The position numbers were made by a program, and so were the translations under genes. The notes under the pieces are model-generated. The model saw only the letters and a program-made list of their open reading frames with translations. It made no database searches and was not told the origin of the DNA. Of a DNA stretch of 64,000 nt, positions 16,457 through 47,270 are shown piece by piece (the stretch's first letter is position 1; each line of letters starts with the position of its first letter). The stretch is from Eledone cirrhosa. Taxonomy: Eukaryota. The stretch is taken from positions 39,680,001 through 39,744,000 of the forward strand of contig OZ024740.1 in NCBI GenBank assembly GCA_964016885.1. Direction: 5' to 3'.

Positions 16457-16899
16457 GTGAAGGCGCATGGCTTAGTGGTTAGAGCATTGGGTTTGCAATC
16501 GAAAGGTGGTGAGTTCAATTCTCAGACCGGGTGATGTGTTGTTTCCTTGAGCAAGACACTTTATTTCACATTGCTCCAGTTTACTCAGCTGTAGAAATGA
16601 GATAATAGAACTGGGGTCCCTATCATTCCACTGCAAAGTGGTCATGGAGGTGCCACGGCAAAAAAAGCACCCAGCCTACACTGTAAAGTGGCCATGTAGG
16701 TGCCATGGAAAAAAAGCACCCAACACTCACTGTAAATGAGGTTGGTGTTAGGAAGAGCATCCAGCTGTAGAAATCAAGCCAGAATCAGTTCCTGTATGAG
16801 CAAGACAAGGTCAGCCGACTGGACACTGCCCACAACAGGACAACCCATCTAACCCATGCTAGCGTGGAAGAACGGACGTAAAACGGTGATGATGATGAT
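16457..16899 (+). mobile_element. tRNA-derived SINE with CORE-like body and RTE-A-derived 3' tail
   Basis: A-box TGGCTTAGTGG (16468), B-box GAGTTCAATTC (16511), body CCTTGAGCAAGACACTT...CTGTAGAAATG. The 3' half matches the RTE-A 3' UTR. (GAT)n tail; ATAC flanks both ends. Confidence 0.9.
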
Positions 16900-22078: not shown

Positions 22079-24717
22079 CATCATCATCATCATCAACGTT
22101 TAACGTCCGTGTTCCATGCTTGCATGGGTTTGGACGGGGGTAGTCCCACTTGAGGCAAGAGTGATTGTCTTGCTCGCATAGGACTGTCTGGCAGGTTTTC
22201 TACAGTTGGATGCCCTTCCTAACACCAACCACATTTACAGTGTGGGTCTGGGAGGTTTTTACCGTGTTGCCTACACGGCCACATTACAGCGTGGACTGTG
22301 TGTTTTTTTGTCGTGACACCTACACGATCTCATTTGTTTCGGCCTGGATGGCGCGGCACCAACATAACTTTACATAGAACGGGGTGGTGTGGATGGGGTG
22401 GGGGTGGTGGCGGGACGGGGTGTATTTTGTTAGAGATGCCTACTGGCAAGGCGGGTCTTCTCTGTTACTGAGTACCGCCAAAGGTCTCGGTCCAGTGACA
22501 TTGTCTTGGAGAGGTGTAAGTGTGTGAGGTCGGAGTTTATCAGCTCATCCCAGGTTTTTCTAGGTCTGCCTATTCCGTGGCTACCGTCTATCTTCATTGC
22601 CCTGCACTTTGTTATACAGCTATCGACTTTCATGCGCATCACGTGTCCATACCAACGCAGCCTTCTCTCGAGTAAACAACATCTGATCCCTCTTATCTCT
22701 AATTTTTTCCTTAGTTCGTTTATGCTTTGCCGTTCACGTATATTACTGTTACACATCCAGCGGAGCATGCAAGCTTCGTTCCTCTCTAGTCTGCGTATAT
22801 CCTCTGCACACAATGCCCAGGTCTCACTACCATGCAACATTGCTGTTCGTATGCAGGCATCGTACAACCTGCCTTTCATTTTTAGGGAGAACCCTTTAGC
22901 AGCTAATAGTGGTATAAGCTCTCTGAACTTTTTCCACCCAGTTCTGACTCTAGCTACAGTACTTTCAGAGCATCCTCCCCCACTGCTGATTTTATCGCCC
23001 AGGTAACGGAAGCTGTCCACTATTTCTATAGAACCCTCTGCGCAATTGAAAGAGCTAGTATTTTGTGGGCACTTGCTGCTACTTATTGCACCAGAACACC
23101 GGCCACATGTAAAATCTATGTTCTTAGTTAGCTTACCTGTGATCCCACTACATCTTTTATGCACCCATACTTTGCATTTAGGACATAAAATGGAGTTTCT
23201 ACCTACGCCTTTCCTACACACCGAGCACGACCATTTCCCAGAAGGGACCGCCGCCTTGTTTTCTTTCCTACAAACTAGAACTTTGGTCTTAGCCAGGTTA
23301 ATTTTAAGTCCTTTTGACTCTAGGCCGTGCTTCCATGTTTGGAATTTCTTCTCTAGCTCGGCCATTGATTCCGCTATGAGTGTCAGGTCGTCTGCGTATA
23401 GGAGTTCCCATGGGCAGCCTGTCTTGATCTCCTCTGTTATAGCCTGAAGGGCAATAATAAATAGTAGGGGGCTGAGAACAGAGCCCTGATGGACACCAAC
23501 TTTTACGCTAAACTCTTCACTATATTCGTTGTTAATTCTAACCTTGCTGACTGCTTCTTTATACATGGCTTGTATAGCCCTCACAAGCCATTCGTCAACG
23601 CCTAGTTTTCTAAGAGCCCACCAGATAATGGAGCGGGGGACTCTGTCGAAGGCTTTCTCCAGGTCGACAAAAGCTAAGTAGAGGGGTTTACCTTTAGCTA
23701 GGTACTTCTCCTGTAGTTGTCGTACTATGAACAGAGCGTCTGTGGTGCTTTTGCCCGACACAAACCCGAACTGCATTTCATCTAGGTCAATTCTCTCTCT
23801 GATTAGTTGCGCTATTACTTTTTCCGTGACCTTCATGACCTGGTCGATTAATTTAATGCCTCTATAGTTACTCCTATCTAGGGCGTCTCCTTTACCCTTA
23901 TAACAGTTAACGATGATGCTGCTATGCCAGTCCTTCGGAACAACCCCATTCTGTACGACTTGGTTAACTATGCGGGTGACCATGGTGTGTCCCACCGTGC
24001 CAGATGCCTTCAGCATCTCAGCAACTATTTCCGAAGGCCCAGCCGCCTTACCCGTCTTCATATCCTTGATTGCCTTACTTATTATACTCCCCTCGACTAA
24101 CACTGCTGGTCCCTCTATTGGGTCGATATGGGGGAGACTGTCTTTCTCCCATTTGTTCTCCTCATTTAGTAGCCTTTCATAGTGACACTTCCAAGCTACC
24201 TTCTTATCAGTGTCGGTGATGGCAAGTATGCCATCATCGTTAAGTACACACTTCTCCCCGACAATATCACGGTTTTCCTTGACGCATTGCCTAGCAATCC
24301 TGAACACCTCACGTTTTTGGTCATCGCGTTGTAGAACATGCTTGAACTTTCTTTCCTCAGCTTCCCTTCTTGCTAAGTACACTTCTCTCCTAGCTTCCCT
24401 CCTGGCCACTTGATAGTCTACTCTACTTCCCCCATCCCGCCATACTTTCCAAGCCTGCTTTTTGGCCTTAATTGACCCCTCCACCCTACTGTTCCACCAC
24501 CATGTTACTCTCCTCCTGCCTACAGGCCTGCTCCAGCCACAAACTTCGTCTGTCGCCAACAGCAGGTTTGCTTTCAGAAATTCCCACTCTCCCTCTATAT
24601 TGTCCGACTCTAGATGCTCTTCCTTACTGTCGAAAGCATCAAGTAATATGCTTTGAAATTTATTTCTGGCTGTGGGGTCCTTTAGTTTCCATATTTTCCT
24701 CCTGAGGATAGTCCTCT
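22079..24717 (-). mobile_element. RTE family B, 5'-truncated, with uninterrupted RT and PHD reading frame
   Basis: ORF 22430..24772 contains NYRGIKL, QFGF, FVDLEKAFDRV, GVHQGSVLSP, YADD and YLG. No endonuclease. A 28-nt deletion removes the normal stop codon. The first about 18 aa are satellite. Confidence 0.96.
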
Positions 24718-26124: not shown

Positions 26125-27828
26125 CAAAAGTACCACAGACGCTCTTTTCATAGTACGACAACTACAAGAGAAGTACCTAGCTAAAGGTAAACCCCTCTAC
26201 TTAGCTTTTGTCGACTTGGAGAAAGCCTTCGACAGAGTCCCCCGCTCCATTATCTGGTGGGCTCTTAGAAAACTAGGCGTTGACGAATGGCTTGTGAGGG
26301 CCATACAAGCCATGTATAAAGAAACAGTCAGCAAGGTTAGAATTAACAACGAATATAGTGAAGAGTTTAGCGTAAAAGTCGGCGTCCATCAGGGCTCTGT
26401 TCTCAGTCCACTACTATTTATTATTGCCCTTCAGGCCATAACAGAGGAGTTCAAGACAGGCTGCCCATGGGAACTCCTATACGCAGACGACCTGACACTC
26501 ATAGCGGAATCAATGGCCGAGCTAGAGAAGAAATTCCAAACATGGAAGCACGGCCTAGAGTCAAAAGGACTTAAAATTAACCTGGCTAAGACCAAAGTAC
26601 TAGTTTGTAGGAAAGAAAACAAGGCGGCGGTCCCTTCTGGGAAATGGTCGTGCTCGGTGTGTAGGAAAGGCGTAGGTAGAAACTCCATTTTATGTCCTAA
26701 ATGCAAAGTATGGGTGCATAAAAGATGTAGTGGGATCACAGGTAGGCTAACTAAGAACATAGATTTTACATGTGGCCGGTGCTCTGGTGCAATAAGTAGC
26801 AGCAAGTGCCCACAAACTACTAGCTCTTTCAATTGCGCAGAGGGTTCTATAGAAATAGTGGACAGCTTCCGTTACCTGGGCGATAAAATCAGCAGTGGGG
26901 GAGGGTGCTCTGAAAGTACTGTAGCTAGAGTCAGAACTGGTTGGAAAAAGTTCAGAGAGCTTATACCACTATTAGCTGCTAAAGGGTTCTCACTAAAAAT
27001 GAAAGGCAGGTTGTACGATGCCTGCATACGAACAGCAATGCTGCATGGCAGTGAGACCTGGGCATTGTGTGCAGAGGATATACGCAGACTAGAGAGGAAC
27101 GAAGCTTGCATGCTCCGCTGGATGTGTAACAGTAATATACGTGAACGGCAAAGCATAAACGAACTAAGGAATAAATTAGAGATAAGAGGGATCAGATGTT
27201 GTTTACTCGAGAGAAGGCTACGTTGGTATGGACACGTGATGCGCATGAAAGTCGATAGCTGTATAACAAAGTGCAGGGCAATAAAGATAGACGGTAGTCA
27301 CGGAATAGGCAGACCTAGAAAAACCTGGGACGAGCTGATAAACTCCGACATCACACACTTACACCTCTCCAAGACAATGTCACTGGACCGAGACCTTTGG
27401 CGGTACTCAGTAACAGAGAAGACCCGCCTTACCTAAATATATAGTAAAACCTACTCCAGCCAGTAGGCATCTCTAACAAATACACCCCGTCCCACCACCC
27501 CCACCCGATCCACACCACCCCGTTCTATGTAAAGTTATGTTGGTGCCGCGCCATCGAGGCCGAAACAAATGAGATCGTGTAGGTGTCACGACAAAAAAAC
27601 ACACAGTCCACGCTGTAATGTGGCCGTGTAGGCAACACGGTAAAAACCTCCCAGACCCACACTGTAAATGTGGTTGGTGTTAGGAAGGGCATCCAACTGT
27701 AGAAAACCTGCCAGACAGTCCTATGCGAGCAAGACAATCACTCTTGCCTCAAGTGGGACTACCCCCGTCCAAACCCATGCAAGCGTGGAACACGGACGTT
27801 AAACGCTGATGATGATGATGATGATGAT
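26125..27828 (+). mobile_element. RTE family B, 5'-truncated
   Basis: ORF 26072..27436 is nearly identical to the 22430 ORF. (GAT)n tail; target duplication ATACAAT. Confidence 0.96.
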
Positions 27829-27946
27829 ACAATGTAACATGTATTATATCTATATATAGAATGTAACATGTATTATATCTATATATAGAATGTAACATGT
27901 ATTATATCTATATATAGAATGTAACATGTATTATATCTATATATAC

Positions 27947-30672
27947 TAGTCAGTTAGATTTTATCCTCATCAGAGGACGTGACAGATGGACGGTCGTAAA
28001 CACAAAAGCCTTCCCTAGTGAGGAATGTACATCCCAACATAGCTTAGTTGTCAGCGACCTCACGGTCAGAACTAGACGAACCCGGAAACAGAGGCCAACC
28101 TGGAGAAGAAAGATCTGGAAGCTGAAAGTCCCCTCAACCAGTAACAGATTTAACAATATTTTACTCAACGCCTACGACAGTAAAGAAGAACAGATAGAGA
28201 CATTTAACGTAGAAGAGAACTGGGAGTTCCTAAAAAATAATTTACTAGAGGCGACGGATGAGGTCTGTGGCTGGAGTAAGACCTCAAGCAGGAGGAGAGT
28301 GACTTGGTGGTGGAACAATAAGGTAGATGAAGCAGTTAAGGCCAAGAGACAGGCATGGAAAGAATGGAAGAACGGGGGGAGCTGGGTACATTACATAGAG
28401 ACCAAGAGGGAAGCTAGGCGACAAGTATACTTAGCTAGGAGGGAAGCAGAGGATAGAAAATTCAAGCATGTTTTACAACGTGAGGACCAGAAACAGGAGG
28501 TATTCAAGATTGCGAGGCAGTGTGTCAGAGATAGTTGTGATGTCATTGGAGAGAAGTGTATCCGGAATGATAAAGGTGAGCTTGCCCTCACAAGTACTGA
28601 GAAGAAAGATGCATGGAAGAGTCATTATGATAGATTACTAAATGAGGAGAATGCATGGGAAGAAGAGACCCTACCCCAAGTCGACCCTATAGAGGGACCA
28701 GCAGTACAAGTCAGCAGCAGCGTGGTAAGTAAGGCAATCAAAGATATGAAGATAGGGAAGGCAACCGGTCCATCGAGTATAGCTGCCGAGATGCTGAAGG
28801 CATCTGGGTCTGTAGGTCACACTATAACCACACGTATCGTTAACCAGGTAATACTAGAAGGGGCCATACCAAAAGATTGGTGCAGTAGCATCATTGTCAA
28901 CTGCTACAAAGGTAAAGGTGATGCACTAGATAGAGGAAACTATAGAGGTATAAAGTTGATGGACCAGGTCATGAAAGTAACAGAAAGAGTTATAGCACAG
29001 CTGATTAGGGACCGGGTGAAAATAGACGAGATGCAATTTGGGTTTGTACCAGGAAGAGGCACCACTGATGCCCTCTTCCTTGTGAGGCAATTACAGGAAA
29101 AGTACCTAGCTAAAAGTAAGCCACTCTACTTGGCATTTGTCGACCTTGAGAAAGCCTTTGACAGAGTTCCACGTGTTGTAATCTGGTGGGCTCTTAGAAA
29201 ACTAGGAGTAGATAAATGGCTTGTGAAAGCGGTACAAGCCATGTATAGGGGAGCAGTCAGCAAAGTTAGGATTAGCAATGAGTATAGCGAGGAATTTAGC
29301 GTACAGGTTGGGGTCCACCAGGCCTCTGTTCTTAGCCCTCTCCTGTTCATCATAGTCCTGCAGGCAATAACGGAGGAGTTTAAGACCGGATGCCCATGGG
29401 AACGCCTGTATGCTGATGACCTCGCACTCATAGCTGAATCTATGGTAGAACTAGAGAATAAATTCCAAACCTGGAAGCAGGGACTAGAAAGAAAGGGTCT
29501 CAAAGTCAACATGACAAAGACTAAGGTCCTTGTAAGTAGACGAGAAAACAGAACCCAGATCCCCTCAGGGAAATGGCCTTGCTCAGTATGTAGGAAAGGT
29601 GTAGGTAGGAACTCCATTATCTGCCCCAAATGCAAACAATGGGCACACAAGAGATGTAGCGGGATCTCAGGAGGCTTAACTAAGAATGTAGGATTCACAT
29701 GCAGCAGCTGTGCTGAAACAGCAAGCAGCAAACAGCCACAGGAAACAAGTACCACCAATCTCTGGGAGGGCCCTGTAGAAACAGTAGACAGCTTCTGCTA
29801 CCTAGGTGACCGAATTAGCAACGGAGGTGGGTGTTCAGAAAGTACAATAACTAGGGTAAGAACGGGATGGAAGAAGTTTAGGGAACTGCTACCACTGCTA
29901 GCTGCAAAAGGCTTCTCCCTCAGAATGAAAGGCAGACTGTATGATGCGTGTATCCGAACAGCGATGTTGCATGGTAGTGAGACCTGGGCGCTGAAGGTGG
30001 AAGACTTACATAGATTAGAGAGAAACAAAGCCTGCATGCTCCGATGGATGTGTAACAGTAATAAACGTGAACGACAAAGCATAAATGAATTGAGAGAGAG
30101 ACTGAGCATAAGAGGAATCAAATGCTGTGTGCAGGAGAGGCGGTTGCGTTGGTATGGACATGTGATGCGTCTGAAGGAAAACAGCTGCATAAAAAGGTGC
30201 AGAGCACTAGAAGTTGATGGAAACCGCGGAGTGGGGAGACCCAAGATGACCTGGGATGAGGTGATAAAAGCCGACCTTACCCAATTACACCTCTCAAAGA
30301 CAATGACACACAACCGTGACTTCTGGCGTCACGCAGTAATACAGAGTACCCGACCTCCCATGGGTACAAGCTGAAGCATATAAACAATATGCCCCCACAC
30401 CGCAAGGTGGTCGTGGAGGTGCCACGGCAAAAAAGCACCCAGCCCACACTGTAAAGTGGACGTGTAGGCGCCACGAAAAAGCACCCAGCACTCACTGTAA
30501 ATGAGGTTGGTGTTAGGAAGGGCATCCAGCTGTAGAAATCAAGCCAGATCAGTTCCTGTATGAGCAAGGCATGGTCAGCCGACCAGACACTGCCCACAAC
30601 AGGACAACCCGTCTAACTCATGCTAGCGTGGAAGAACGGACGTAAAACGATGATGATGATGATGATGATGAT
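27947..30672 (+). mobile_element. RTE family A, 5'-truncated, slightly diverged
   Basis: Frame continuous with ORF 28299..30374. Motif changes QGSV to QASV and WELL to WERL. (GAT)n tail; ATAC flanks both ends. Confidence 0.96.
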
Positions 30673-32590: not shown

Positions 32591-35554
32591 ATCATCATCA
32601 TCATCATCATCACCGTTTTACGTCCGTTCTTCCACGCTAGCATGGGTTAGACGGGTTGTCCTGTTGTGGGCAGTGTCTGGTCGGCTGACCATGCCTTGCT
32701 CATACAGGAACTGATCTGGCTTGATTTCTACAGCTGGATGCCCTTCCTAACACCAACCTCATTTACAGTGAGTGCTGGGTGCTTTTTCGTGGCGCCTACA
32801 CGTCCACTTTACAGTGTGGGCTGGGTGCTTTTTTGCCGTGGCACCTCCACGACCACCTTGCGGTGGGGGGGGGGGGCATATTGTTTATATGCTTCAGCAT
32901 GTACCCATGGGAGGTCGGGTACCCTGTATTACTGCGTGACGCCAGAAGTCACGGTCGTGTGTCATTGACTTTGAGAGGTGTAGTTGGGTAAGGTCGGCTT
33001 TTATCACCTCATCCCAAGTCATCTTGGGTCTCCCCACTCCGCGGTTTCCATCAACTTCTAGTGCTCTGCACCTTTTTATGCAGCTGTCATCCTTCATACG
33101 CATCACATGTCCATACCAGCGTAACCGCCTCTCCTGCACGCAGCATTTGATTCCTCTTATGCTCAGTCTCTCTCTCAATTCATTTATGCTTTGTCGTTCA
33201 CGTATATTACTGTTACACATCCATCGGAGCATGCAGGCTTCGTTTCTCTCTAATCTACGTAAGTCTTCCACCTTCAGCGCCCAGGTCTCACTACCATGCA
33301 ACATCGCTGTTCGGATACACGCATCATACAGTCTGCCTTTCATTCTGAGGGAGAAGCCTTTTGCAGCTAGCAGTGGTAGTAGTTCCCTAAACTTCTTCCA
33401 TCCCGTTCTTACCCTAGTTATTGTACTTTCTGAGCACCCACCTCCGTTGCTAATTCGGTCACCTAGGTAGCAGAAGCTGTCTACTGTTTCTACAGGGCCC
33501 TCCCAGAGATTGGTGGTACTTGTTTCCTGTGGCTGTTTGCTTGCTGTTTCAGCACAGCTGCTGCATGTGAATCCTACATTCTTAATTAAGCTTCCTGAGA
33601 TCCCGCTACATCTCTTGTGTACCCATTGTTTGCATTTGGGGCAAAGAATGGAGTTCCTACCTACACCTTTCCTACATACTGAGCAAGGCCATTTCCCTGA
33701 GGGGATCTGGGTTCTGTTTTCTCGTCTACTTATAAGGACCTTAGTCTTTGTCATGTTGACTTTGAGGCCCTTTCTCTCTAGTCCCTGCTTCCAGGTTTGG
33801 AATTTATTCTCTAGTTCTACCATAGATTCAGCTATGAGTGCGAGGTCATCAGCATACAGGAGTTCCCATGGGCATCCGGTCTTAAACTCCTCCGTTATTG
33901 CCTGCAGGACTATGATGAACAGGAGAGGGCTAAGAACAGAGCCCTGGTGGACCCCAACCTGTACGCTAAATTCCTCGCTATACTCATTGCCAATCCTAAC
34001 TTTGCTGACTGCTCCCCTATACATGGCTTGTACCGCTTTCACAAGCCATTCATCTACTCCTAGTTTTCTAAGAGCCCACCAGATTACTGCACGTGGAACT
34101 CTGTCAAAGGCTTTCTCAAGGTCGACAAATGCCAAGTAGAGTGGCTTACTTTTAGCTAGGTACTTTTCCTGTAATTGCCTCACAAGGAAGAGCGCATCAG
34201 TGGTGCCTTTCCCTGGAACAAACCCAAATTGCATCTCGTCTATATTCACCCGGTCCCTAATCAGCTGTGCTATAACTCTTTCTGTTACTTTCATGACCTG
34301 GTCCATCAACTTTATACCTCTATAGTTTCCTCTATCTAGTGCATCGCCTTTACCTTTGTAGCAGTTGACAATGATGCTACTGCACCAATCTTTTGGTATG
34401 GCCCCCTCTAGTATTACCTGGTTAACGATACGTGTGGTTATAGTGTGACCTACAGACCCAGATGCCTTCAGCATCTCGGCAGCTATACCCGATGGACCGG
34501 TTGCCTTCCCTATCTTCATATCTCTGATTGCCTTACTTACTACGCTGCCGCTGACTTGTACTGCTGGTCCCTCTATAGGGTCTACGTGGGGTAGGGTCTC
34601 TTCTTCCCATGCATTCTCCTCATTTAGTAATCTATCATAATGACTCTTCCATGCATCTTTCTTCTCAGCACTTGTGAGGGCAAGCTCACCTTTATCATTC
34701 CGGATACACTTCTCTCCAATGACATCACAACTATCTCTGACACACTGCCTCGCAATCTTGAATACCTCCTGTTTCTGGTCCTCACGTTGTAAAACATGCT
34801 TGAATTTTCTATCCTCTGCTTCCCTCCTAGCTAAGTATACTTGTCGCCTAGCTTCCCTCTTGGTCTCTATGTAATGTACCCTGCTCCCCCCGTTCTTCCA
34901 TTCTTTCCATGCCTGTCTCTTGGCCTTGACTGCTTCATCTACCTTATTGTTCCACCACCAAGTCACTCTCCTCCTGCTTGAGGTCTTACTCCAGCCACAG
35001 ACCTCATCCGTCGCCTCTAGTAAGTTATTTTTTAGGAACTCCCAGTTCTCTTCTACGTTAAATGTCTCTATCTGTTCTTCTTTACTGTCGTAGGCGTTGA
35101 GTAAAATATCTTTAAATCTGTTACTGGTTGAGGGGACTTTCAGCTTCCAGATCTTTCTTCTCCAGGTTGGCCTCTGTTTCAGGGCTCGTCTAGTTCTGAC
35201 CGTGAGGTCGCTGACAACTAAGCTATGTTGGGATGTACATTCCTCACTAGGGAAGGCTTTTGTGTTTACGACCGTCCATCTGTCACGTCCTCTGATGAGG
35301 ATAAAATCTAACTGACTAGAGTGCTCCCCTGATCTATAGGTGATCAGGTGGTTGTCGGGTTTTTTAAAGTTTGTGTTACATATCGACATGTCATTGGCGT
35401 CGCAGAATTCTAGAAGTCTGAATCCTTCCTCATTCCTTGTGCCAACTCCATGGCCTCCATGTACTCTATTGAAGCCGTCGCAGTGTTTACCTACGCAGTG
35501 TTTACCTACGCAGTGTTTACCTACGCAGTGTTTACCTACGCAGTGTTTACCTAC
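32591..35554 (-). mobile_element. Longest RTE family A copy: partial APE endonuclease, RT with PHD, 3' UTR
   Basis: 831-aa ORF 32894..35389 (NTNFKK...ITY...SQLDFIL...SQHSLV endonuclease end; YADD). The frame extends upstream through VGKHCDGFNRVHGGHGVGTRNEEG; truncated within the endonuclease. Confidence 0.97.
35480..35554. repeat. Five perfect copies of the 15-mer GCAGTGTTTACCTAC at the LINE 5' junction
   Basis: Units start at 35480, 35495, 35510, 35525 and 35540. Confidence 0.97.
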
Positions 35555-38555: not shown

Positions 38556-38600
38556 GCTGGGGTCACGAGGCAGCCAGAGCATATAACTACAACACAGGTT

Positions 38601-38989
38601 ATCATCATCATTTCATTTTACGTCCGCTTTTCCCTGCTTGCAAGGGTGAGACGGGAACTGATTCTGGCTTGATTTCTACAGCTGGATACCCTTCCTAACA
38701 CCAACCTCATTTACAGTGAGTGCTGGGTGCTTTTTTTCCATGGCACCTAAACGTCCACTTTACAGTGTGGGCTGGGTACTTTTTTGCCGTGGCACCTCCA
38801 CGACCACTTTGCAGTGGAATGATATGGACCCCAGTCCCTATCATCTCATTTCTACAGCTGAGTAAACTGGAGCAATGTGAAATAAAGTGTCTTGCTAAAG
38901 GAAACAACACATCACCCGGTCTGAGAATTGAACTCACAACCTTTCGATTGCAAGCCCAATGCTCTAACCACAAAGCCATGTGCCTCCAT
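38601..38989 (-). mobile_element. tRNA/CORE-like SINE with RTE tail (short-tail subfamily)
   Basis: Homologous to the 16457 copy. Target duplication AGGTTAT (38596-38602 and 38990-38996). Confidence 0.9.
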
Positions 38990-39099
38990 AGGTTATATAC
39001 AACTATAACTACAACAATAAATATAGATTAATAGATTTTCTTTTCACATTAAATATTAGCAGAGAACAAGAAACAATGACAGTTAATCACCATCATCAT

Positions 39100-46584: not shown

Positions 46585-47270
46585 ATGCCTGTATACGAAC
46601 AGCAATGTTACATGGCAGTGAGACATGGGCATTGGGCTGCGCAAATTGGAAATAGTAATATACACGAATGGCAAAGCATAAATGAACTTAGTGAGAAATT
46701 AGGCATAAGAGGGATCAGATGCAGTATACTAGAGAGGAGATTGCTTTGGTATGGTGATGTAATGCATTCGAAGGATGACAGCTGTATAAAAAAAATGCAG
46801 AGCAATTGATGGAAGCTACAGAGTAGGAAGACCTAGAAAGTTCTGGGTCGAGGGGATAAAAGCTGACCTTGCACACTTGCACCTTTCTAAGACAATGACA
46901 CAGGATTGAGATCTTTGGCGCTATGCAGTAATACAGAAGACCCGCCTTCCCTTGTACACGGACTTTAACCTACAGTCAGTTGGGACCTTTTAATCCCATA
47001 TACACCCCCACACCCCTACATCTCACTCCCACTTTCACCCACACCACCCTTACACTGTAAAGTGGCCGTGTAGGTGTCACAACAAAAGGCACCCAGCCCA
47101 CACTAAATGTGGTTGGCATTAGGAAGAGCATCCAGCCATAGACAATCAGTCAGAAACAGTCCTATATGAGCAAGACACAGTCACCCAACCCAACTTACCT
47201 CAAATGGGATAAACCCGTCTAACCCATGCTAGCGTGGAAAGTAGACGTTAAATGACGATGATGATGATGA
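46585..47270 (+). mobile_element. Older degraded RTE 3' fragment related to families A and B
   Basis: Fragments ACIRTAMLHGSETW and SINELSEKLGIRGIRC with indels; homologous 3' UTR and (GAT)n tail. Confidence 0.9.

What the first reader, a model, noticed from the sequence alone, without database searches (positions are those of the whole stretch)
30396..30650. Repeated, covarying GNRA-hairpin plus H-type pseudoknot module in RTE and SINE 3' UTRs
Seen: RTE-A has cacc-GCAA-ggtg, then GTCGTGG-a-GGTG-CCACGGC-aaaaaag-CACC (30410-30439), then cact-GTAA-agtg and a second similar unit. Compensatory changes occur between families. Stem 1 is CGTG/CACG in RTE-A, CCATG/CATGG in the SINE (about 16692) and TCGTG/CACGA in RTE-B (27575). 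Stem 2 is GGTGC/GCACC versus GTGT/ACAC in RTE-B. The terminal hairpin is CCATGC/GCGTGG versus CCTTGC/GCAGGG. The A-rich linker fits minor-groove triplex pseudoknots. It is followed by GGTTGGTGTTAGGAAGGGCATCCAGC, which I recall as Ceph-domain or RTE UTR-like. Inference: a selected RNA structure shared by LINEs and their SINE, perhaps for RT recruitment, nuclease blocking or catalysis.
Basis: partly seen in the sequence, partly recalled or inferred. Interest (0 to 1): 0.7.

Follow-up and report, generated by a model that had tools for sequence, protein, structure and literature searches.

The report
Movable RNA module of jumping genes
A short, strongly conserved motif, predicted to fold into hairpins and small RNA knots, sits at the tail of two jumping-gene families, at the head of a third and inside a parasitic short element of this genome, and likely serves as a handle that the jumping gene's own protein grips.

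Summary
The sequence is as described. It is the 3' UTR of a young, very abundant single-ORF LINE (RTE-type). The first unit can form a hairpin plus an H-type pseudoknot (0 of 200 shuffles as good); the second cannot. GNRA is not the general loop. No pair covaried significantly under a tree-aware null. The motif is not the Ceph-domain. The conserved core is the 3' 'anchor' (33 of 34 nt identical between families whose four-fold sites are 38% identical). A sister family, RTE-E, carries the module just before its start codon and has no 3' UTR. So do two distant relatives, so it likely moved to the 3' UTR once. Twenty of 24 SINE copies join the module to RTE-E's tail. Best reading (0.45): a position-independent cis handle for the element's own protein. 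Main rival (0.25): a ribosome-engaging element. Rfam gave no match and insertion ends give no sign of a ribozyme or nuclease block. This scan noted the same module several times before in this genome. New variant of the bipartite RTE-UTR theme; the fold is unproven.

The parts
27946..30672 (+). 5'-truncated copy of young LINE family RTE-A; ORF frame 27918-30374 with RT and PHD-like finger
   Evidence: full-length copies have a 1040-codon open frame
30398..30409 (+). Hairpin of unit 1 (GCAA tetraloop in this family)
   Evidence: in the MFE fold
30410..30442 (+). Unit 1: predicted H-type pseudoknot (stem 1 30410-30416 with 30422-30428; stem 2 30418-30421 with 30436-30439; A-rich loop)
   Evidence: 0 of 200 shuffles as good; stem 1 in the MFE; covariation not significant
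30444..30488 (+). Unit 2: hairpin with CTGTAAA-type loop plus a degenerate knot (4-bp stem 1, mismatch in stem 2)
30491..30505 (+). Third hairpin, CTGTAAA loop; stem differs on both sides between RTE-A and RTE-B
   Evidence: pair ranks 2 of 1485 but E=14
30506..30545 (+). Conserved anchor: stem 30506-30510 with 30526-30530, AGGAAG loop, A-rich linker and GCC arm (30543-30545) that could pair with 30521-30523
   Evidence: 33 of 34 nt identical A vs B; present before start codons in L140-L146, E2 copies and L341
30610..30642 (+). Terminal two-helix stem-loop, the likely priming signal of the LINE
30649..30672 (+). (GAT)n tail
16457..16899 (+). tRNA-like-headed SINE: box-like head, CORE-like body hairpin (about 16576-16615), two units, anchor, RTE-A-type tail
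   Evidence: ARAGORN calls no tRNA, head assigned by eye
27573..27828 (+). RTE-B 3' UTR: two units, hairpin, anchor, tail
38600..39000 (-). SINE with two units, anchor and RTE-E-type tail (ends approximate)

Best explanation
The stretch is the 3' UTR of a young RTE-type LINE and carries a conserved module that is predicted to fold into hairpins and small pseudoknots and likely acts as a position-independent handle by which the element's own protein loads onto its RNA. Shown: the module is conserved; it lies before the start codon in RTE-E, RTE-E2 and two distant relatives, in the 3' UTR in RTE-A and RTE-B, and next to the tail in SINEs. Inferred: it began in the leader, moved once to the 3' UTR in the A/B ancestor (probably by recombination with a short leader-plus-tail RNA), and its 48-nt upstream unit duplicated. 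The newly made ORF protein would bind the anchor in cis and then prime on the separate terminal stem-loop. SINEs would keep the module to compete for that protein. Untested: the fold, the binding and which unit matters.
For: Anchor core 33 of 34 nt identical between A and B, against 38% identity at four-fold sites and 31 of 63 in the spacer behind it. Each of the three young families examined has the module at exactly one end. RTE-E has it in the leader in 7 of 7 full-ORF copies and in the tail in 0 of 12. A and B have it in the tail and not in the shared leader. The quick tree puts E sister to (A,B), SH-aLRT 99-100, and the outgroup element L341 has it in the leader only. 24 of 24 classed SINE copies keep at least one unit plus the anchor, and 20 of them end in the RTE-E tail, the leader-piece-plus-tail layout of Kojima 2018 (PMC5786205). 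SINEs are not translated and a 3' UTR needs no promoter, so an RNA-level, position-free role fits best. Precedent: R2Tg protein binds a small 3'-UTR pseudoknot (PMC12222951, passages). A, B, E and the SINE each keep one knot-competent unit.
Against: No significant covariation: best E=19 for units and 1.9 for anchors; 199 and 225 of 500 shuffles as high. Nested folds are no more stable than shuffles (z -1.56 to +0.75). L340, a full-ORF relative (43% identity), has no anchor in 609 nt upstream or 263 nt downstream, so the clade does not strictly need it. All elements have a terminal stem-loop that could be the whole RT signal (PMC4176376 abstract). The tight link to the start codon (+6 to +41 nt) is not required by this reading. 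Recent exchange of UTR pieces between families could inflate conservation.
Confidence: 0.45

Rival explanations
1. The anchor is a ribosome-engaging element. It would help initiation at the nearby AUG of long leaders, act as a 3' translation enhancer in A/B, and let SINE RNAs dock on ribosomes that make the LINE protein.
For: An ATG follows the GCC arm at +6 or +7 in 13 of 14 RTE-E2 rows, +11 and about +20 in two distant elements, and +41 in RTE-E. It is in frame with the endonuclease where checked. The RTE-E leader has 32 ATGs in 1500 nt. The elements end in (GAT)n, not poly(A). Analogies to the HCV IRES knot, the tobamovirus upstream pseudoknots and Alu docking are recalled, not tested.
Against: RTE-A and RTE-B lack it before their AUG yet are heavily amplified. 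The spacing varies from 6 to 41 nt. No RNA run was available.
Confidence: 0.25
2. The module acts as DNA or as a linear sequence motif (promoter or factor-binding site). The pairings are incidental or relics.
For: No significant covariation. The most conserved letters are invariant. Kojima 2018 suggests transcription-factor binding for another conserved RTE leader domain.
Against: It is kept in 3' UTRs and inside Pol III-type SINEs. Several family-level two-sided, non-CpG changes keep stems: the third hairpin in A vs B, the hairpin and stem-1 top pair in E, and one pair of the E-type long stem.
Confidence: 0.12
3. The 48-nt units are slippage duplicates with no job of their own, and the module's likeness across families comes from recent template switching rather than selection.
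For: Eight arrays of 7-20 units in 1.234 Mb. Second units are degenerate in A and B. Unit number varies. This may well be true of the extra units even if the anchor is functional.
Against: The anchor recurs before start codons in elements only about 47% identical in protein. A and B UTRs differ strongly on both sides of it.
Confidence: 0.08
4. The knots block exonucleases and stabilise these poly(A)-less RNAs (xrRNA-like).
For: Compact knots with A-rich loops. Short elements in host-animal DNA of metagenome contigs start sharply about 28 nt before the motif.
Against: True 5' ends of 65 young copies are spread, with no pile-up at the module. No Rfam match.
Confidence: 0.07
5. The module is a self-cleaving ribozyme.
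For: Other RTE elements carry twister or HDV-like ribozymes (PMC8501958 passages; PMC5786205).
Against: No Rfam match. RTE-E copies share more than 1.5 kb upstream of the ATG, across the module. A and B copies run through it, and cleavage there would sever the template.
Confidence: 0.03

Closest known systems
Bipartite RTE-derived SINEs and the conserved RTE 5'-UTR domain (Kojima 2018, PMC5786205; parts 1-4 of 5 read, supplement searched)
   Same: A conserved internal leader piece of an RTE LINE reappears in tRNA-headed SINEs next to the LINE's tail, and can be duplicated.
   Different: Different sequence from the Ceph/RTE domain printed there. Here autonomous LINEs (A, B) carry it in the 3' UTR. 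In the parts I read no pseudoknot is proposed.
R2Tg 3'-UTR pseudoknot (PMC12222951, passages)
   Same: A small pseudoknot in a non-LTR element's RNA bound by its own RT; the model for how this may work.
   Different: R2 is an RLE-clade element and its knot is the priming signal within the last 67 nt. Here the knots lie 65-230 nt upstream of the end, a separate terminal stem-loop exists, and the module also occurs in leaders.
LINE 3'-tail stem-loops shared with SINEs (ZfL2; PMC4176376 abstract; PMC3747384 passages)
   Same: The terminal stem-loop at 30610-30642 is of this kind and is shared with the SINEs.
   Different: The upstream module is additional to it and not tied to the 3' end.
CORE-SINE body hairpin (MIR1_AMi in Kojima's supplement) and Nin-domain 3' half (PMC4758252 supplement)
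   Same: MIR1_AMi shows a hairpin with the same CTGTAAA loop. The Nin 3' half shows a similar knot-like layout ending in an A-rich linker and ACCCAGCA.
   Different: By-eye likeness of short words only; homology not tested. No Nin-type 21-mer found in this genome.
Twister and HDV-like ribozymes at RTE 5' ends (PMC8501958 passages)
   Same: Pseudoknotted RNA in RTE UTRs.
   Different: No Rfam match, no defined end at the module, and it occurs inside 3' UTRs.

Membership tests
RTE-clade LINE (host element) | Single ORF with endonuclease and RT domains | tested here: met
   1040-, 1133- and 1024-codon open frames; RVT_1 in window copies; homologs carry PF03372 and PF00078
RTE-clade LINE (host element) | Short tandem-repeat 3' tail instead of poly(A) | tested here: met
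   (GAT)n tails
RTE-clade LINE (host element) | RT phylogeny groups with named RTE elements | not tested
Ceph-domain / Kojima's conserved RTE 5'-UTR domain | Sequence similarity to the SepiaSINE/OegopSINE RTE-derived part | tested here: not met
   Module words absent from the supplement text and printed Ceph sequences are different by eye
Bipartite RTE-derived SINE | tRNA-type head, then a piece of a LINE leader, then that LINE's tail | tested here: met
   20 of 24 classed SINE copies have module plus RTE-E tail, and RTE-E has the module in its leader; the SINE's letters are A-type and its head is assigned by eye
H-type pseudoknot | Two crossing stems with compatible loop lengths | tested here: met
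   RTE-A unit 1, RTE-B unit 1, RTE-E unit, one SINE unit; not met for unit 2 of A or B
H-type pseudoknot | Significant covariation in both stems | tested here: inconclusive
   None significant, but stem 2 is nearly invariant and most changes are neutral decay, so power is low
H-type pseudoknot | Probing or structure shows the fold and the minor-groove triples | not testable with these tools
   needs SHAPE, NMR or cryo-EM
GNRA tetraloop hairpin | GNRA loop closed by a conserved stem in all units | tested here: not met
   Fits A and SINE units; closing pair T-T in RTE-B unit 2, poor in RTE-E and the third hairpin
Known self-cleaving ribozymes (HDV-like, twister, hammerhead) | Match to an Rfam covariance model | tested here: not met
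   0 at gathering score; 3 chance hits outside the module at E up to 10
Known self-cleaving ribozymes (HDV-like, twister, hammerhead) | Element ends defined by the cut site | tested here: not met
   Copies run through the module
xrRNA | Rfam match or pile-up of 5' ends at the structure | tested here: not met
   insertion ends are only an indirect read-out
xrRNA | XRN1 resistance in vitro | not testable with these tools
   bench assay

The most novel reading that the evidence does not exclude
An ancient start-codon pseudoknot of PHD-bearing RTE elements is a portable RNA device that works from either end of the transcript. It was transplanted from leader to 3' UTR in one LINE lineage and is used by SINEs to dock on ribosomes or on nascent RT, an invertebrate counterpart of Alu's docking trick built from a LINE's own leader.
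Probability: 0.2. Interest if true: 0.75.

Novelty: new variant of a known kind. Interest (0 to 1): 0.45.

Why it matters
How RTE-type LINEs pick their RNA, and why their SINEs keep a piece of the LINE leader, is open. This genome offers a natural transplant: three young families with near-identical full-length copies carry one module at opposite ends, and a SINE joins it to one family's tail. That makes the question directly testable with swaps and compensatory mutants. RTE elements are also being developed as gene-insertion tools whose UTRs affect efficiency (PMC13708176, passages). The finding also shows how CpG decay mimics covariation in repeat copies.

Tried and rejected
Rfam scans: nothing. 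Viral contigs: 8 and 4 pattern hits, read as chance; no RT relative there. No RNA holder listed, so expression and RNA ends were not tested. Laying runs: X22 and, on RTE-E, X6 gave no reads; the other contigs showed related variants but no linkage. Relic of an old tail after the A/B stop codon: not above shuffles (114-799 of 1000). A hairpin before the anchor in distant animals: not above chance (Fisher p=0.76 over 17 representatives, several being decayed copies of one family). The GCC-arm pairing in those 17: p below 0.07 in 5, absent in the dominant family, combined p=0.06. Pile-up of 5' ends at the module: none. Nin-type 21-mer in this genome: 0. Rank 1 of 903 for hairpin pair 3-10 by MI/APC did not survive the tree-aware null (E=27). 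A profile comparison with published CORE and Nin consensus sequences was left out because those sequences are not held as loci. The careful tree did not finish; the quick tree is used. Literature searches finding no description of this module: 0 papers; 0 papers. The library lacks most subscription papers (for example Ohshima and Okada 1994, Akasaki 2010, Gogolevsky 2008). Supplement file 1 of PMC4758252 and of PMC4824008 could not be searched and may bear on the CORE/Nin likeness.

Full report
What is in the window. The stretch follows the stop codon of a 5'-truncated LINE copy (27946-30672) whose frame encodes an RT and a PHD-like finger. The genome is 3.0 Gb and has many identical full-length copies of this family, RTE-A, and of two relatives, RTE-B and RTE-E. 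A and B are about 74% identical in protein, and E about 65% to both. The RTE label rests on the single EN-RT frame and (GAT)n tails; I did not test it against named references. The UTR reads: hairpin + knot unit (30398-30442), a second unit (30444-30488), a third hairpin (30491-30505), a conserved anchor (30506-30545), a spacer, a terminal stem-loop (30610-30642) and the tail. A sample of 117 ten-kb regions plus the window gave 113 anchor hits, 110 kept. The 93 outside the window extrapolate roughly to 240,000 per genome. The same sample gave 249 unit hits, in runs of 1-4 inside elements and in 8 arrays of 7-20.

Can it fold as claimed? With a simple scanner, RTE-A unit 1 forms an H-type knot (estimate -11.9 kcal/mol against -11.3 for the nested fold; 0 of 200 shuffles as good). 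So do RTE-B unit 1 (2 of 200), the RTE-E unit (5 of 200) and the SINE unit at 16690 (0 of 200). RTE-A unit 2, RTE-B unit 2, the SINE unit at 16640, the unit at 47066 and the RTE-A anchor gave none; the B and E anchors did (11 and 1 of 200). These windows were picked by eye, so the counts flatter the fold. Nested folding is not better than shuffles (z -1.56 for the whole UTR, -1.18 to +0.75 for the parts).

Is the covariation real? Among unique units, double decays are 26 compensatory and 27 not (31 and 28 in all 207 near-full units). The CCATG/CATGG state is 1 of 70 units, and a sister copy has only the 5' change. The GNRA register suits A and the SINE, with one two-sided change at the closing pair. 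It fails in B unit 2, in E and in the third hairpin, where the stem closes a CTGTAA(A) loop instead. With a tree-aware null modelled on R-scape (my own script), no pair was significant: best E=19 on 260 of 340 unique units, best E=1.9 on 126 of 158 unique anchors. In the anchor set two hairpin pairs and one stem pair ranked 2, 5 and 8 of 1485, a hint only. On 20 chosen anchors the covariation score was matched by 199 and 225 of 500 shuffles for the hairpin and knot folds. Power is low, since most differences are decay of dead copies and stem 2 hardly varies. At family level there are a few two-sided, non-CpG changes that keep stems, and also breaks in the second units. The terminal hairpin does show it: 35 of 35 cells paired in 7 sequences, 7 of 500 shuffles as high.

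Is it under selection? Four-fold sites differ at 62% between A and B and 67% between A and E. The anchor core is 33 of 34 identical between A and B, hairpin plus anchor 50 of 57, the units 27 of 35 and 38 of 49, the spacer behind it 31 of 63, and the spacer before it does not align. Recent exchange of just this piece cannot be excluded.

It is not tied to the 3' end. RTE-E has no 3' UTR: its frame runs into the terminal stem-loop in 12 of 12 copies. It carries hairpin, long stem, knot unit, hairpin and anchor just before its ATG in 7 of 7 full-ORF copies. An older sister, E2, has three such units in its leader and an ATG 6-7 nt after the GCC arm in 13 of 14 rows printed from 15 loci. RTE-A leaders (8 examined) had no anchor hit within 3.4 kb of the ATG. 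RTE-B leaders had single unshared hits in 3 of 7, about 0.9 kb or more before the frame. 28 of 31 A- or B-assigned C-terminal rows had an anchor within 450 nt downstream (some copies counted twice). Contig L341, likely animal DNA inside a bacterial bin, holds two relatives (47% identity for the complete one). Each has the anchor shortly before an in-frame ATG, and the complete one has none in its tail. L340, another full-ORF relative, has none at either end. A quick tree places E sister to (A,B). The leader position is therefore likely ancestral and the 3' position derived once. Of 24 SINE copies with a recognisable body junction, all keep at least one unit and the anchor; 20 end in the E tail, 2 in the A tail and 2 were unclassed. 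They start about 28 nt before the motif and keep the anchor hairpin but have no knot units and no GCC arm.

How it most likely works. A piece kept at either end of the LINE RNA and in untranslated SINEs fits an RNA-level, position-free job. I favour a loading site for the element's own protein (0.45), used together with the terminal stem-loop that primes. The R2Tg pseudoknot is a precedent (PMC12222951, passages). RT-binding sites at a start codon are known to me from group II introns and hepadnaviruses (recalled, not checked). The main rival is a ribosome-engaging role (0.25), favoured by the start-codon spacing and 32 upstream ATGs in the E leader, and weakened by A and B thriving without it there. 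A DNA-level or linear motif (0.12) stays open because covariation is not shown. Insertion ends give no sign of cleavage or nuclease arrest: of 188 untargeted anchor copies, 65 were young enough to map, and their true 5' ends were spread; the clusters at -68 and -82 are one-unit SINEs and a duplicated B subfamily.

What is known. Rfam has no match. Kojima 2018 (PMC5786205; parts 1-4 of 5 and supplement searches) describes SINEs built from an RTE leader piece plus tail, but the Ceph-domain sequence there is different. The hairpin loop resembles the CORE hairpin of MIR1_AMi, and the unit resembles the Nin 3' half, by eye only. Passages of two octopus repeat papers (PMC13282606, PMC9115989), PMC4758252, PMC4824008, PMC8501958, PMC3747384, PMC13708176 and bioRxiv 10.1101/2022.11.04.512097 do not describe this module in what I saw. 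Ten searches listed no paper on it. Earlier notes of this scan report the same module at least four times in this genome and twice in other genomes. They are not independent support; two gave me leads (start-codon spacing, CORE likeness) that I then checked.

Verdict. A real, selected and mobile cis element of an RTE-type LINE/SINE system. New variant of a known kind; interest 0.45.

Noticed in passing
L147-L154 (RTE-A leaders): The RTE-A 5' region is several kb of roughly 510-nt tandem monomers with nested shorter repeats, variable in number between copies; possibly a monomeric promoter.
   Followed up: partly
L107, L157, L099, L169, L170, L178, L333: The 48-nt unit forms arrays of 7-20 copies at single loci.
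   Followed up: partly
L088, L337, L141, L007, L400: An RTE-B subfamily has a duplicated unit + hairpin + anchor, joined at a short repeated word.
   Followed up: partly
L140:3750-3790 and L356-L370: RTE-E-type units have an extra 8-bp stem with an inner hairpin before the knot; one pair differs on both sides among E2 units.
   Followed up: partly
L371-L395: An old family carries 2-3 E-type units with anchors directly before an E-like tail, possibly a bipartite non-autonomous element.
   Followed up: partly
L140:3870-3915: Young RTE-E appears to have lost the ATG that E2 has just after the anchor and uses one 41 nt downstream; a 26-codon upstream frame starts inside the GCC arm.
   Followed up: partly
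L140-L146, about 190 nt before the ATG: A run of 13-25 T precedes the module in RTE-E leaders.
   Followed up: no
window:1-9000 approx.: A 37-bp tandem array occupies the start of the window.
   Followed up: no
window:30672-31310, 27828-27945: An AT-rich minisatellite follows several LINE tails in the window, suggesting repeated insertion into it.
   Followed up: no
window:27946-29727 with 33538-35319; 22445-23753 with 26125-27433: Close inverted pairs of young LINE copies, 98% complementary over 1.3-1.8 kb, could form long double-stranded RNA if transcribed.
   Followed up: no
anchor alignment columns 24 and 53 (window 30513 and 30542): These two positions are mostly T-A or A-T across families, the top pair (E=1.9); unexplained, perhaps lineage or a tertiary contact.
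   Followed up: partly
L340-L345: Contigs in bacterial genome bins that encode RTE-type RTs and SINE-like repeats are probably animal contamination.
   Followed up: partly
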